Part shown: one piece after another, positions 3,004 through 14,103 of the stretch
How positions within the stretch are numbered: position 1 is the stretch's first letter
How the letters are laid out: each line of letters starts with the position of its first letter
Source of the DNA: a virus
Length of the DNA stretch: 64,000 nucleotides
Direction: 5' to 3' (one strand)
Virus record (IMG/VR): IMGVR_UViG_3300031414_000013
Location: 33,081-97,080 of that record
Made by a program: the position numbers and the translations under genes
Notes under the pieces: generated by a model
Told to the model about the DNA's origin: nothing
What the model saw: only the letters and a program-made list of their open reading frames with translations
Database searches by the model: none

Positions 3004-3585
3004 TTATTTGTAAACGCCGGAGATGTGATGTTTCCGGCAGACAGACACGTAACGATCGTTGCCACCAATGACAACCTGTTCACCCTTACGTGAGACCTTA
3101 CCTTCGTCATCGATGCGCAGCACCATTGTTGCTTTGCGACCACAATGACAGATGGTTTTGATTTCTTCGAGTTTGTCAGCAATAGCCAACAGACGATGAC
3201 TACCTGGGAACAGTTCACCCTGGAAGTCGGTACGCAGACCATAACACATAACCGGGATGTCCAGCATGTCTACGATGTCAGACAACTGATCTACTTGGTC
3301 ACGAGTCAGGAACTGTGCTTCATCTACCATGATACACGCAATGCGACGTGCATCGTTAGCATGCACGGTGTATTGGTAAATGTTAGAATTCGGCAATACC
3401 GTGATTGCTTCGTGGGTCAGGCCAATGCGTGATACTGCTTCGGGCTTCGCTGTCTCACGTGTGTCGATTGCTGGCTTGAAGATAACGACATGCATACCGC
3501 GTTCTTCGTAGTTGTATGCAGCCTGAATTAAAGCGGTAGTTTTACCACTGTTCATCTGACCGTATTTAAAATAAAGGCTAGACAT
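3004..3585 (-). CDS. tdk: Thymidine kinase
   Basis: GQMNSGKT, VDEAQFL, YGLRTDFQGELFPGS, zinc ligands CHCG...CRKH. Confidence 0.97.
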   Translation of the reverse strand: MSSLYFKYGQMNSGKTTALIQAAYNYEERGMHVVIFKPAIDTRETAKPEAVSRIGLTHEAITVLPNSNIYQYTVHANDARRIACIMVDEAQFLTRDQVDQLSDIVDMLDIPVMCYGLRTDFQGELFPGSHRLLAIADKLEEIKTICHCGRKATMVLRIDDEGKVSRKGEQVVIGGNDRYVSVCRKHHISGVYK

Positions 3586-3666: not shown

Positions 3667-4143
3667 TTAGTCGCACGGCTTCCAGTATTCGTCTGTGAAA
3701 TACAACTCTGTGGGAAGTTTCTTATCCGTGAGTAACTTCTGAACCTGAACACGAACACGCTCAAGTTGTGCCATGCAATCTTCATCTTTTCCTTCAACAT
3801 AGAGGATAGACATGTGCGGGGCGTAGTTGTCGTAGCTGTAACTGAAACCAGCATCGATCAACTCAAAGTGACGCTTCATGATTTTGTCTGATGAAAGCAA
3901 CAGAACAACGGCTTTACCCAAGACAGCCACACCCATTACACTGGCGTGATAAATCTCAGGTGGAATCTCGATATCGTCCGTGGTTTTACTGTTACGCTCA
4001 TCATACATCAGAGTGCAGTGAAGTTTCTCAATCGGAATCAGTTTCAATCCTTTAGGCAGATCCAGATCACGAATAGCCTTCAACACGTTATTGTGTGGGT
4101 TGATAATCGGCTTTAGTGCCGAGTACCCGATTTTTGTACTCAT
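3667..4143 (-). CDS. acb1: Acb1-like (T4 gp57B family) 2H phosphoesterase, putative anti-CBASS nuclease
   Basis: Two HxT/S motifs (LHCTLMY, PHMSILY) with the gp57B-type GFSYSYDNYAPH segment; start at MSTKIG. Confidence 0.8.
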   Translation of the reverse strand: MSTKIGYSALKPIINPHNNVLKAIRDLDLPKGLKLIPIEKLHCTLMYDERNSKTTDDIEIPPEIYHASVMGVAVLGKAVVLLLSSDKIMKRHFELIDAGFSYSYDNYAPHMSILYVEGKDEDCMAQLERVRVQVQKLLTDKKLPTELYFTDEYWKPCD

Positions 4144-4172
4144 TGCTAATCCTCTACGATAAATGCATAGAA

Positions 4173-4370
4173 TTAGCGACGGTTCCCACAATACCGACTT
4201 GCGGTTAGAATCAGGTAGATAAGGATAGGAAGCCACCCCGTTGCCAGAACAACACGTTTGATTGTCAGCCAACCGTCCGCATTGCAATAGTTACGTGAGT
4301 CACAGTGCTTCTCTAACATACGGTCGATCAGTAAAGCCACTATTAAATAGAGAGCCAGTCCATAATACAT
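4173..4370 (-). CDS. Small two-TM membrane protein
   Basis: 65 aa with two hydrophobic segments. Confidence 0.55.
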   Translation of the reverse strand: MYYGLALYLIVALLIDRMLEKHCDSRNYCNADGWLTIKRVVLATGWLPILIYLILTASRYCGNRR

Positions 4371-6090: not shown

Positions 6091-6273
6091 TTAGATCTTA
6101 CAGCCGTCGCCGCAGTCGTTATCGCCTGCTGCCACTTCGATTGCTTCACCGCCACCAGAACGCATCTGGTCGACTTTCTCTTCTGACCCTTCCAGGTCCA
6201 GGTTGCCCAGCGCACCATCAATGTCCAGTTCCCCAGCTGATGCTTTACCCAGAATCTCGTCTACCTTACTCAT
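6091..6273 (-). CDS. Acidic 60-aa protein ending in an NrdA-like C-terminal cysteine tail
   Basis: Ends DNDCGDGCKI; AAGGA upstream. Confidence 0.65.
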   Translation of the reverse strand: MSKVDEILGKASAGELDIDGALGNLDLEGSEEKVDQMRSGGGEAIEVAAGDNDCGDGCKI

Positions 6274-6646
6274 CTTCGTTTTCCTTACAGTTAGGATTGT
6301 TAATCAACATACCATTGGCATCTTTGAACGTGACGTCAATAGAACCATCCAATAGACCTTGTAAAGTAGCCAACACTTCCTCTGCCCGACTGTATGCAAA
6401 GAACGTGTCGCTACTAATGAAGTACATAATCTCACGAACTTGCTGGTTCGTGGCTTTCTTACCCAGCTCGGTGGCCAAGGCACGCATGGTGCGGTTCTTC
6501 GGCTTCTTACAACCAGGTTCGTTGAGTTCGCGCATCTGCGTTGAGATACTCAAGAGTGCGCTAGATAACTCACGACCCATCTGTAGTAGCGGCAGGTGTT
6601 CCATGGTCTTCCTTATATAAGTAGTCGAGCGAAAGTCCGAAGGCAT
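6266..6646 (-). CDS. Hypothetical protein (start may be MEHL, ~6604)
   Basis: ORF in operon. Confidence 0.6.
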   Translation of the reverse strand: MPSDFRSTTYIRKTMEHLPLLQMGRELSSALLSISTQMRELNEPGCKKPKNRTMRALATELGKKATNQQVREIMYFISSDTFFAYSRAEEVLATLQGLLDGSIDVTFKDANGMLINNPNCKENEDE

Positions 6647-9247: not shown

Positions 9248-11618
<2,371 letters not shown>

Positions 11619-12427: not shown

Positions 12428-12919
12428 CTAGCGGTCACGAACCCGCACCAGTGCATCTCCCAACATATTCAGACCACGCCAACACGTTTGATCCATGTGG
12501 TCCGGATGATCAACGTCCATCCCAATTCCCCAGAGCGTATCTGTAGGTGAGGCTTCTACCAGCAGTCGCTTACCGGTTGCTTTCAGTTCAGCCATCATCT
12601 CTGGGTTCTGTTCAAACTTGGCAGACAGTACGTCACACATCGTAGCAAATCGCTCGCCAGCCCATACCTGATCGTTGTAAGGAGATACTTCACGACCCAG
12701 CATTTTACAGATGAACGGGGCATTACGTTTGCCTGGATCTACGGCAGCGATTTTAGCAGCCACCCGGTAGTCCTTAAAGTGCATTGCCTTCAACCACATG
12801 AATGCCTGTTCTGAGCAGAAGAAATTCACGCCCGCCAAGTTAAACTCGCAACGATAGAAGTTGCTGTAGATGTCGTCCCCATAATAGAAGAAGACAAACT
12901 CATCAGTTGTCTTTACCAT
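12428..12919 (-). CDS. NADAR (YbiA-like) family protein
   Basis: YSNFY, SEQAFMWLKA..F.D, KMLGR, KFEQN, LVEASPTD..WGIG, GLNMLG. Confidence 0.93.
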   Translation of the reverse strand: MVKTTDEFVFFYYGDDIYSNFYRCEFNLAGVNFFCSEQAFMWLKAMHFKDYRVAAKIAAVDPGKRNAPFICKMLGREVSPYNDQVWAGERFATMCDVLSAKFEQNPEMMAELKATGKRLLVEASPTDTLWGIGMDVDHPDHMDQTCWRGLNMLGDALVRVRDR

Positions 12920-13163
12920 GTGTCTCCACCGTACATTCGAGGACAATAGCAGGAGGGAAGAAGTCAGGCTTGTTGGTAATGCTATCCCACTGCACCTGAA
13001 TCTGCTCACGTAGTTGCTGTTGTAATATCAGCTTGAGCTTAAACACTGGACACTGATACTTACGGCGACCTTTAGGAATGACCTGGTACGGGTTCTTACG
13101 ATGCAGGTTTTTCTTTTCCTGTCGAGTCAGAACAGCCGTTGGGTCTATGTACGACTTTGGCAT
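12903..13163 (-). CDS. Hypothetical basic protein
   Basis: 86 aa in operon. Confidence 0.55.
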   Translation of the reverse strand: MPKSYIDPTAVLTRQEKKNLHRKNPYQVIPKGRRKYQCPVFKLKLILQQQLREQIQVQWDSITNKPDFFPPAIVLECTVETHGKDN

Positions 13164-13657
13164 TTTAACATCCTCTTCATTTTCTCAGAGAAAGAAACCT
13201 TCTCTTTGATGACTGGTTCGAAATAGCTAAAGAAGGCGGCTACCGAATGACATGCGTTCGCTGCCAGGATACAATTCAACAGCACCGCATGCTCTTCGCT
13301 TTTCAGTGGGTTCAGTCCAGGCATATTGAACGGATGTCGTCTACCCGCATCGATGTTCTCCTGTGTCCACAGTGGAGCCACAGCCAACCCTGGATGTTTG
13401 TACCCAATAACATCATTCACAAGCCACGTACCGTCGCATGTGACGATCAAGGCTTTATGCGTGAGGTTGCCGTAGAAGCTATCGCCCTTCTCAAGATAGC
13501 CTTCCAGTAGGAAGTCAAGGTGCTCACGGAATGCGAATACACCAACCATGATAATCTGACTACCTGCCCATTTAGCATCTGGACCATTTTTACTGTAGGC
13601 GAAACAGAGCTGCGCTGCGCTGTCCTCCACACCGTTAGATGAAAGCATGACTCTCAT
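13145..13657 (-). CDS. Hypothetical protein, possible degenerate Ntn-fold paralog
   Basis: WAGSQIIMVG...ALIVT..TWLV parallels WGKEVILAVAG...MLVLT..CYEV of 14474..15118. Confidence 0.5.
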   Translation of the reverse strand: MRVMLSSNGVEDSAAQLCFAYSKNGPDAKWAGSQIIMVGVFAFREHLDFLLEGYLEKGDSFYGNLTHKALIVTCDGTWLVNDVIGYKHPGLAVAPLWTQENIDAGRRHPFNMPGLNPLKSEEHAVLLNCILAANACHSVAAFFSYFEPVIKEKVSFSEKMKRMLKCQSRT

Positions 13658-14103
13658 TGGAGACTCCCGTTAAATACGTACTCGAGTTTACCACGACGAT
13701 ACGCACCTTTAACAACTTCATCTAGTGAGTAGCCATAGCGATTAACAAAGATCCTACTGTACTGACCTAGTAGCTCCTCAGACACGGTCACGAGCGGTGC
13801 GCTGGTCTCCAGAAGCTCCATGCCTCGCTCTAGGAGTCGTAACCCTAAGCCAGTGTTCTGATGACTTGGGGAGACCCTTACACAACGTAGTTTCTTTTCG
13901 TCCCCATTTTTAGCCAAAACAAAACCGGCCAGCGTCCCGCCAACAAAAGCTCCTATTGCTAGGTTGCTTTCATTGGCGGGGTCAGATAGGACTTTGTTAC
14001 GATACCAGTTGTCAATGTTCGGGTAGTACTGATCTAATGTCAGCAGGGATGGAGTGAGGAGCCGAAGCTCCTCCAACGTGTTAAGTTTTCTTATTTCTAA
14101 CAT
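13654..14103 (-). CDS. GNAT acetyltransferase
   Basis: KLRCVRVSPSHQNTGLGLRLL acetyl-CoA binding motif A. Confidence 0.85.
   Translation of the reverse strand: MLEIRKLNTLEELRLLTPSLLTLDQYYPNIDNWYRNKVLSDPANESNLAIGAFVGGTLAGFVLAKNGDEKKLRCVRVSPSHQNTGLGLRLLERGMELLETSAPLVTVSEELLGQYSRIFVNRYGYSLDEVVKGAYRRGKLEYVFNGSLQ

What the first reader, a model, noticed from the sequence alone, without database searches (positions are those of the whole stretch)
6091..6273. Stand-alone ribonucleotide-reductase-type C-terminal cysteine tail
Seen: a 60-aa acidic, Gly-rich, probably disordered protein ending DNDCGDGCKI. Established: class I RNR alpha subunits end in a flexible tail with a redox Cys pair (E. coli NrdA ends ...CESGACKI) that shuttles electrons from thioredoxin/glutaredoxin to the active site. 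No nrdA is in this window. Inference: a trans-acting redox shuttle for host or phage RNR (possibly a split nrdA), or a competitor/decoy.
Basis: partly seen in the sequence, partly recalled or inferred. Interest (0 to 1): 0.7.

Follow-up and report, generated by a model that had tools for sequence, protein, structure and literature searches.

The report
Phage copy of RNR redox tail
A jumbo phage with no ribonucleotide reductase (RNR) of its own encodes a small disordered protein whose end copies the cysteine-pair tail that recharges the host's RNR, which suggests an undescribed way for phages to tap or tune host DNA-precursor synthesis.

Summary
Window 6091-6273 (- strand) is a real gene for a 60-aa acidic, disordered protein. 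It is under strong purifying selection (dN/dS 0.08) and has a Shine-Dalgarno site.

Its last ~11-25 residues match the C-terminal redox tail of enterobacterial class Ia RNR alpha (NrdA). A matrix built only from 30 host NrdA tails scores the family's C-termini at 18-32 bits. The best of 5 million random 11-mers scored 20.5, and host tails score 26-36. NrdA's C-terminus is the top or only hit of the family profile in two whole bacterial genomes. Both cysteines are present in all 37 tailed homologues collected.

New findings:
- The ~48-aa module occurs alone or fused to the C-terminus of three N-terminal domain families that share no detectable sequence similarity. One of these families is the window's own upstream gene, so the ORF is a detached tail.
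- Ten complete phage genomes that carry the module have no NrdA. "Split nrdA" is therefore rejected.
- All five Chaseviridae checked also carry an orphan NrdB.

Best reading (about 0.4): a trans-acting dithiol shuttle acting on host NrdA. Rivals are an Sml1-like inhibitor or decoy, a docking tag, or an unrelated role. I found no published description. This scan's index held only this same stretch, not other DNA.

The parts
6091..6273 (-). 60-aa module protein (with stop codon): acidic, Gly-rich, mostly disordered
   Evidence: dN/dS 0.079; low pLDDT; member of phrog_10239, E 1.5e-4
6094..6162 (-). Residues R38-I60: NrdA-like C-terminal redox tail (R-x-GGGE, acidic run, C54-x3-C58-K-I); Cys codons at 6112-6114 and 6100-6102
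   Evidence: Profile hits to the NrdA C-terminus; host-tail PSSM 19.4 bits; E43, C54 and C58 invariant in alignments A2/A3
6193..6225 (-). Residues D17-L27: conserved acidic-hydrophobic motif (D-hydrophobic-D-x-x-A-L-x-N-hydrophobic-D-hydrophobic); binding partner unknown
   Evidence: Conserved in 37 homologues; its resemblance to the NrdB tail is not statistically supported
6163..6192 (-). Residues E28-M37: short predicted helix linking the motif and the tail
   Evidence: Helix 130-141 of P0009 and 158-170 of P0031 in AF2 models, low confidence
6282..6286 (-). Shine-Dalgarno AAGGA, 8 nt upstream of the ATG
   Evidence: read from the sequence
6266..6646 (-). Upstream partner gene (N2 domain; probably starts at M15, position 6604, giving 112 aa). 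Predicted four-helix bundle. Its stop overlaps the module's ATG by 8 nt. Fused in frame to the module in relatives P0009, P0023 and P0032
   Evidence: orthologous overlapping gene pair in pEa_SNUABM_54, L001 3688-4008 / 4001-4177

Best explanation
The gene encodes an intrinsically disordered stand-alone copy of the C-terminal redox tail of the host's class Ia ribonucleotide reductase alpha subunit (NrdA). It is made by a phage that has no RNR alpha of its own. It appears to be translationally coupled to the upstream gene for a small helical-bundle protein, and in relatives it is fused to that protein. I propose that it enters the host NrdA electron relay. Its two cysteines would reduce the active-site disulfide that NrdA forms at each turnover. 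Host thioredoxin or glutaredoxin would then re-reduce it. Extra tails supplied in trans would speed the recharge step and raise dNTP supply for phage replication. Shown: gene reality, disorder, family-wide conservation of the Cys pair, statistical identity of the tail with host NrdA tails, absence of phage NrdA, and co-occurrence with an orphan NrdB in Chaseviridae. Inferred: binding to NrdA and to Trx/Grx, thiol-disulfide exchange, and the direction of the effect. The broader claim, that it acts somewhere on the host NrdA-Trx/Grx relay in either direction, I put at about 0.65.
For: (1) A PSSM built from the last 11 aa of 30 Enterobacterales NrdA proteins scores the phage C-termini at 18-32 bits. 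Random 11-mers have mean -9.6 and sd 3.7, and the best of 5 million scored 20.5. Host tails score 26-36. The non-Cys columns alone give 7-20 bits. (2) The family profile searched in six frames over the whole E. coli K-12 chromosome returns one hit, the last 17 aa of NrdA (E 0.145). In a Leclercia genome the NrdA end is again the top hit (E 0.06). Among 201 Gammaproteobacteria the best hit is the C-terminus of another NrdA, which also carries the R-D-GGGE element (E 1e-3, profile positions 32-56). (3) Both Cys, one Gly between them and a final Ile/Leu are present in all 37 tailed homologues. Retaining both Cys fits a cycling dithiol better than a dead-end trap. (4) None of 10 complete genomes with the module has PF02867. 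The three jumbo phages tested (pEa54, SPLA10, Miami) also lack NrdB, NrdD, Trx and Grx, so these phages depend on host RNR. (5) All 5 Chaseviridae tested carry an orphan NrdB that resembles E. coli NrdB, with no NrdA. A phage that supplies beta to host alpha presumably wants alpha active. (6) Host trxB is reported to be needed for infection by Serratia jumbo phage PCH45 (PMC11797060). The annotation of the Miami homologue cites a PCH45 protein as its match. (7) From my own knowledge, not checked here: re-reduction is rate-limiting for E. coli RNR in the steady state, and the yeast Rnr1 tail acts in trans.
Against: There is no binding, redox or phenotype data. Host NrdA already carries its own tail at very high local concentration, so a free tail may add little unless it is anchored, and no anchor site has been identified. 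The window's tail is C-x3-C, whereas all 30 host tails are C-x4-C. The module is fused to three N-domain families with no detectable similarity and no recognisable function, which a simple shuttle does not explain. The gene lies among counter-defence genes (Acb1, NADAR), so an anti-defence role is possible. The trxB dependence of PCH45 has other possible causes.
Confidence: 0.4

Rival explanations
1. Competitive inhibitor or decoy, analogous to yeast Sml1. The tail mimic occupies the NrdA active-site entrance, or soaks up Trx/Grx. This blocks recharge of host RNR and shuts down host dNTP synthesis, while the phage lives on salvage (it encodes thymidine kinase).
For: The tail mimicry is the same as for the best explanation. 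Small disordered proteins that inhibit RNR by interfering with regeneration of the large subunit are known in yeast (Sml1, as summarised in PMC6382339). A thymidine kinase gene lies nearby at 3004-3585.
Against: These phages have no RNR of their own and have large genomes, so blocking host RNR looks self-defeating. Chaseviridae add their own NrdB to host NrdA. Keeping both Cys in every member is unnecessary for a blocker, and a resolving Cys would release any mixed-disulfide trap.
Confidence: 0.2
2. Portable docking tag. The disordered tail recruits whichever folded domain it is attached to or co-expressed with (N1, N2 or N3) to host NrdA or to Trx/Grx. The unknown N-domains would be the real effectors.
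For: The same module is found on three N-domain families with no detectable sequence similarity. It is repeatedly split from or fused to two of them. The two modelled domains have different confident folds, a helical bundle and an alpha/beta domain.
Against: Chaseviridae have the module alone. In the three loci with a tRNA annotation or ORF scan of the upstream DNA, tRNA-type sequence lies just upstream; in PYps3T a short annotated CDS does. No N1-N3 homologue is recognisable next to it in any of the five. A pure tag would not need both Cys. The N-domains match no known fold or family.
Confidence: 0.15
3. Unrelated function with a convergent or relic tail. Examples: a metal-binding acidic peptide, an internal virion or pro-peptide, or a counter-defence decoy aimed at a host factor other than RNR.
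For: The neighbourhood contains counter-defence genes (Acb1 at 3667-4287, NADAR at 12428-13009). The homologue in phage SA002 lies next to virion genes. Short tails can converge.
Against: The match covers 11-25 residues, is anchored at the C-terminus on both sides, and in several members is indistinguishable from host tails. It has persisted across several phage lineages under purifying selection.
Confidence: 0.1
4. Split nrdA: the tail belongs to a phage NrdA encoded elsewhere that lacks its own Cys pair.
For: The window's own record is only about 36% complete, so a distant nrdA cannot be excluded for this exact phage.
Against: None of 10 complete module-bearing genomes has PF02867. This includes pEa_SNUABM_54, whose gene order matches the window's across this region. 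Two larger fragments of closer relatives also have none.
Confidence: 0.02

Closest known systems
C-terminal redox tail of class Ia RNR alpha (E. coli NrdA C754/C759)
   Same: An acidic flexible stretch ending in Cys-x-x-G-x-Cys-Lys-Ile. In several family members the last 10-11 residues fall within the natural variation of Enterobacterales NrdA tails. The R-x-GGGE element also occurs in a real NrdA.
   Different: It is not attached to an RNR catalytic barrel. It is free-standing or fused to unrelated small domains. The window's copy and 10 others have C-x3-C instead of C-x4-C. The phages that encode it have no NrdA.
Sml1 / Spd1-type small disordered RNR regulators of yeasts
   Same: A small, intrinsically disordered protein proposed to act on the large subunit at the step where the C-terminal Cys pair regenerates the active site (PMC6382339).
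   Different: No sequence relationship is claimed or was tested. Sml1 is an inhibitor that does not copy the Cys-pair tail, whereas this protein is a copy of the tail itself. This one is viral rather than cellular.
Phage-encoded RNR electron donors (for example T4 NrdC thioredoxin, NrdH-type redoxins)
   Same: A phage supplies a component of the electron relay that recharges RNR (my own knowledge, not checked here).
   Different: Those are folded thioredoxin-fold proteins that serve the phage's own RNR. This is a disordered tail mimic in phages without NrdA, Trx or Grx.
R2 (NrdB) C-terminal peptides that compete for the R1 binding cleft
   Same: An acidic-hydrophobic short motif. A one-way PSSM test was suggestive (P 8e-5 against random sequence, 2.6e-3 against shuffles).
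   Different: The reciprocal test with a host NrdB-tail matrix against shuffled modules was not significant (median P about 0.25). The motif is internal here, not C-terminal.

Membership tests
NrdA (class Ia RNR alpha) C-terminal redox tail | Two Cys near the extreme C-terminus, spaced C-x4-C, followed by two residues ending in Ile/Leu | tested here: met
   All 37 tailed homologues end C-x(3-4)-C-x-[IL]. 26 have C-x4-C like all 30 host tails, and 11 (the window's included) have C-x3-C.
NrdA (class Ia RNR alpha) C-terminal redox tail | Sequence similarity of the surrounding tail to genuine NrdA tails beyond the Cys pair | tested here: met
   Non-Cys columns score 7-20 bits (P 4e-4 to below 2e-5). 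NrdA's end is the top or only profile hit in whole genomes.
NrdA (class Ia RNR alpha) C-terminal redox tail | Tail is covalently part of an RNR large subunit (PF02867 barrel) | tested here: not met
   No Pfam domain in the 60-aa protein. Fused forms carry unrelated N-domains. No PF02867 in the record or in 10 complete genomes.
NrdA (class Ia RNR alpha) C-terminal redox tail | Reduces the NrdA active-site disulfide and is re-reduced by Trx/Grx | not testable with these tools
   Needs biochemistry.
Sml1/Spd1-like disordered RNR inhibitors | Small intrinsically disordered protein | tested here: met
   pLDDT below 50 over the module in two AF2 models, and Atlas pLDDT 0.50.
Sml1/Spd1-like disordered RNR inhibitors | Binds the large subunit and inhibits it; homology to Sml1 | not tested
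   No Sml1 sequence was compared. Binding is not testable here.
NrdB C-terminal alpha-binding tail | Motif matching host NrdB tails better than composition alone explains | tested here: inconclusive
   The forward test was suggestive. The reciprocal scan against shuffled modules was not significant: median P about 0.25, and 0.4-0.7 for the window's protein.
PHROG phrog_10239 (unknown function) | Profile match | tested here: met
   E 1.5e-4, residues 14-60 against profile positions 5-47 of 47.
RiPP / double-glycine-leader peptide precursor | Stand-alone leader-plus-core peptide with a maturase or transporter nearby | tested here: not met
   No Pfam match among the immediate neighbours. The only enzyme families found within about 8 kb are thymidine kinase, Acb1, NADAR and a GNAT acetyltransferase, none of them a peptide maturase or transporter. 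The module is often the C-terminus of folded proteins of 160-300 aa.

The most novel reading that the evidence does not exclude
Phages that lack the RNR catalytic subunit take over the host's NrdA by supplying its mobile parts in trans. All lineages would supply a free copy of the alpha redox tail, and Chaseviridae would also supply their own beta subunit. This would be a new mode of metabolic hijack, in which a virus speeds or re-wires a host enzyme's catalytic cycle with a mimic of that enzyme's own disordered tail.
Probability: 0.35. Interest if true: 0.85.

Novelty: new variant of a known kind. Interest (0 to 1): 0.7.

Why it matters
RNR sets the supply of DNA precursors, and its recharge through the alpha C-terminal tail is a mechanistic bottleneck. 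No free-standing, virus-encoded copy of that tail turned up in the literature searches made here. If it works as a shuttle, it shows that the tail can act as a diffusible cofactor and gives a natural tool to probe the recharge step. If it works as an inhibitor, it would be, as far as I know, a bacterial-virus counterpart of Sml1 and a lead for peptide RNR inhibitors. Either way it would help explain how RNR-less jumbo phages and Chaseviridae secure dNTPs. It also assigns a testable role to an unannotated family (phrog_10239) found in at least 61 sequenced phage genomes.

Tried and rejected
- Split nrdA is rejected. PF02867 is absent from 10 complete module-bearing genomes.
- NrdB-tail mimicry by the acidic-hydrophobic motif looked good by eye and in a one-way PSSM. 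It failed the reciprocal test against shuffled modules, so I treat it as unsupported.
- Pfam, PHROGs and the PDB sequence search on the single protein gave no named family.
- The profile search against PDB ranked designed TIM barrels first through repeated weak matches. E. coli R1 residues 745-761 was the best natural single-stretch hit, at non-significant E 1.6-2.9.
- Foldseek and VIA-align searches of the two modelled N-domains gave only generic matches, with best Z 6.3 and 5.2.
- The Atlas search was uninformative.
- Megablast of the region against sequenced phages found nothing.
- The search for related loci with the broad alignment failed for lack of a conserved stretch. With the narrow alignment it found only two loci.
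- A class-wide search with the E. coli NrdA tail found few tails in the sample. The order-level search worked.
- Five literature searches aimed at phage proteins or peptides acting on RNR found no description of a phage-encoded RNR tail.
- The Zhang et al. 2007 paper on Sml1 is not held. I cite it only through PMC6382339.
- A double-glycine leader / RiPP reading and a prohead-protease pro-peptide reading were considered. I set them aside because of the fusions to folded domains and the specific NrdA match.
- Co-folding the module with NrdA was not possible with these tools.

Full report
**Observation**

The ORF at 6091-6273 lies on the - strand and encodes 60 aa. By my count from that translation it has 15 acidic and 5 basic residues and 11 glycines, and it ends C-x3-C-K-I.

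An AAGGA Shine-Dalgarno site lies 8 nt upstream of the ATG. The ATG overlaps the stop codon of the upstream ORF (6266-6646) by 8 nt. This arrangement suggests translational coupling.

Against the homologue in IMG/VR locus L010 (83% identity) there are 24 synonymous and 12 non-synonymous changes, giving dN/dS 0.079. All 12 non-synonymous changes fall in the N-terminal half. The gene is real and constrained.

The window is part of a 97-kb fragment of a virus record that CheckV estimates to be about 36% complete. Gene order and protein identities across 0.6-11 kb match Erwinia jumbo phage pEa_SNUABM_54 (272 kb), with thymidine kinase at 73% and Acb1 at 68% identity.

**The family**

- A tblastn search finds the protein in 61 sequenced phage genomes. 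These include jumbo phages of Erwinia, Salmonella, Klebsiella and Serratia, among them the Miami group. The eight Escherichia and Yersinia 52-kb genomes I opened are Chaseviridae.
- A HMMER profile search of 1.84 billion representative proteins gives only 14 hits.
- A search restricted to longer proteins adds 21 fused forms.
- In 37 sequences the conserved unit is about 48 aa. It consists of an acidic-hydrophobic motif, a short helix, an R/Q-x-GGGE element (replaced by a Lys-rich stretch in Chaseviridae), an acidic run, and C-x(3-4)-C-x-I/L at the very C-terminus.
- In alignment A2 (21 sequences) D19, E43, C54 and C58 are invariant. The only hit without the tail, P0018, matches only profile positions 3-39 and looks spurious.

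**Resemblance to NrdA**

E. coli NrdA ends with an acidic stretch and C-x4-C-K-I.

Three independent checks tie the module to this tail:

1. The family profile was searched in six frames over the whole E. coli K-12 chromosome. It returned a single hit, the last 17 residues of NrdA (E 0.145). In a Leclercia genome, 21 candidates were scored and the NrdA end was again first (E 0.06).
2. Among 201 sampled Gammaproteobacteria the best hit (E 1e-3) is the C-terminus of another NrdA. Its tail also has R-D-GGGE directly after the conserved Tyr-Tyr, and it aligns to profile positions 32-56.
3. I built a position matrix from the last 11 residues of 30 Enterobacterales NrdA proteins only (loci).
   - Phage C-termini score 18-32 bits.
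   - Five million random 11-mers reach at most 20.5 bits.
   - Host tails score 26-36 bits.
   - The nine non-Cys columns alone give 7-20 bits.
   - Several family members cannot be told apart from host tails.
   - The window's copy scores 19.4 bits with one gap, because it is C-x3-C.

The match is anchored at the C-terminus on both sides. I conclude that the C-terminal half of the module is a homologue or close mimic of the enterobacterial NrdA redox tail.

**A detached tail**

Clustering the N-terminal parts of the fused forms gives three families with no detectable sequence similarity:

| Family | Examples | Relation to the module |
|---|---|---|
| N1 | Salmonella phage SPLA10, 282 aa | Fused in every form seen |
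| N2 | The window's upstream ORF | Fused in frame in P0009, P0023 and P0032; separate with the same 8-nt overlap in pEa_SNUABM_54 |
| N3 | SA002 and ten others (fused) | A separate gene in pEa_SNUABM_37 |

- AlphaFold2 models N2 as a confident four-helix bundle and N3 as a confident alpha/beta domain. In both models the module is a low-confidence tail with one helix.
- Neither domain has an informative match by Foldseek or VIA-align. Pfam and PHROGs gave no informative match for N1, N2 or N3 either.
- In the five Chaseviridae loci opened, the module stands alone. tRNA-type sequence lies just upstream in SKA49 and phiEcoM-GJ1, and a short annotated CDS does in PYps3T.

**No phage RNR alpha**

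- PF02867 is absent from the window's record.
- It is also absent from two larger fragments of close relatives, and from ten complete genomes that carry the module: pEa_SNUABM_54, SPLA10, SKA49, pEa_SNUABM_37, SA002, Miami, phiEcoM-GJ1, PYps3T, flopper and ST32.
- pEa_SNUABM_54, SPLA10 and Miami also lack NrdB, NrdD, thioredoxin and glutaredoxin families.
- Split nrdA is therefore rejected.
- All five Chaseviridae tested carry a class Ia NrdB that resembles E. coli NrdB, with the conserved Tyr-containing tail, but no NrdA. These phages encode a beta subunit and an alpha tail, yet rely on host alpha.

**Mechanism**

Established chemistry, as summarised in PMC6382339, is as follows. The tail Cys pair re-reduces the active-site disulfide after each turnover and is itself reduced by thioredoxin or glutaredoxin.

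- A free copy that keeps both Cys, the Gly between them and the acidic context is chemically a competent dithiol shuttle.
- Its presence in phages that depend on host NrdA, and alongside a phage beta subunit in one lineage, favours a productive role. That role would be extra tails in trans that speed recharge. I put this at about 0.4.
- A Tn-seq study found host trxB to be needed by Serratia jumbo phage PCH45 (PMC11797060). The annotation of the Miami homologue cites a PCH45 protein as its match. This is compatible with the shuttle reading but not specific to it.
- The main rival is an Sml1-like competitive inhibitor or redoxin sink (0.2).
- A docking-tag role for the attached domains (0.15) and an unrelated function (0.1) remain possible. 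The latter includes counter-defence, given the neighbouring Acb1 and NADAR genes.
- The broader claim, that the protein acts on the host NrdA-Trx/Grx relay in either direction, I put at about 0.65.

**What failed**

The upstream acidic-hydrophobic motif resembles NrdB C-terminal tails by eye. A phage-derived matrix scores the E. coli NrdB end at 10.3 bits (P 8e-5 against random sequence, 2.6e-3 against shuffles). The reciprocal test used a matrix from about 28 distinct host NrdB tails to scan the modules against their own shuffles. It was not significant (median P about 0.25). I do not claim NrdB mimicry, and the partner of this motif is unknown.

**Novelty**

Five literature searches aimed at phage proteins or peptides acting on RNR found no description of a phage-encoded RNR tail. 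The family's only label is phrog_10239, of unknown function. The scan's own index holds only this same stretch.

I class it as a new variant of known kinds. The known kinds are the RNR redox tails themselves, small disordered RNR regulators, and phage-supplied RNR electron donors. The function is testable directly with standard E. coli RNR biochemistry.

Noticed in passing
L123:3784-4884 (Escherichia phage SKA49); also L159-L162: All five Chaseviridae examined encode a class Ia NrdB that resembles E. coli NrdB, but no NrdA. This is an orphan RNR beta subunit that must pair with host alpha. SKA49 annotates it as class Ib nrdF.
   Followed up: partly
window 3667-4287 (-): Homologue of the anti-CBASS phosphodiesterase Acb1 (PF23474, E 1e-13). 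It lies next to a thymidine kinase at 3004-3585 (PF00265, E 2e-53).
   Followed up: no
window 12428-13009 (-) and 13654-14103 (-): A NADAR-domain protein (PF08719, E 3e-37) and a GNAT acetyltransferase. Together with Acb1 they suggest an accessory or counter-defence region around the finding.
   Followed up: no
window 9248-11302 (-): A 684-aa ORF that looks like an NAD-dependent DNA ligase from its sequence (my reading, not scanned against a family library). It is 49% identical to the pEa_SNUABM_54 counterpart.
   Followed up: no
protein P0019 (metagenomic homologue): One stand-alone family member has an extra N-terminal Cys-rich stretch (five Cys in the first 11 residues) in front of the module. 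This may be a metal- or redox-related variant.
   Followed up: no
L008 (Stenotrophomonas phage BUCTxx100) vs L007 (Klebsiella phage Miami): The two records have almost the same gene layout around the module (one CDS start differs by 3 nt) and the same tblastn identity to the query. The Stenotrophomonas host label of a Miami-like phage may deserve a check.
   Followed up: no
L155:481-575 (phiEcoM-GJ1); L003:2981-4001 (SKA49): In these two Chaseviridae the module gene lies just downstream of tRNA-type sequence. In phiEcoM-GJ1 this is a tRNA-Arg annotated as possibly intron-containing. In SKA49 a 1-kb stretch is unannotated, and one metagenomic gene call (P0014) appears to read through tRNA-like sequence.
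   Followed up: no
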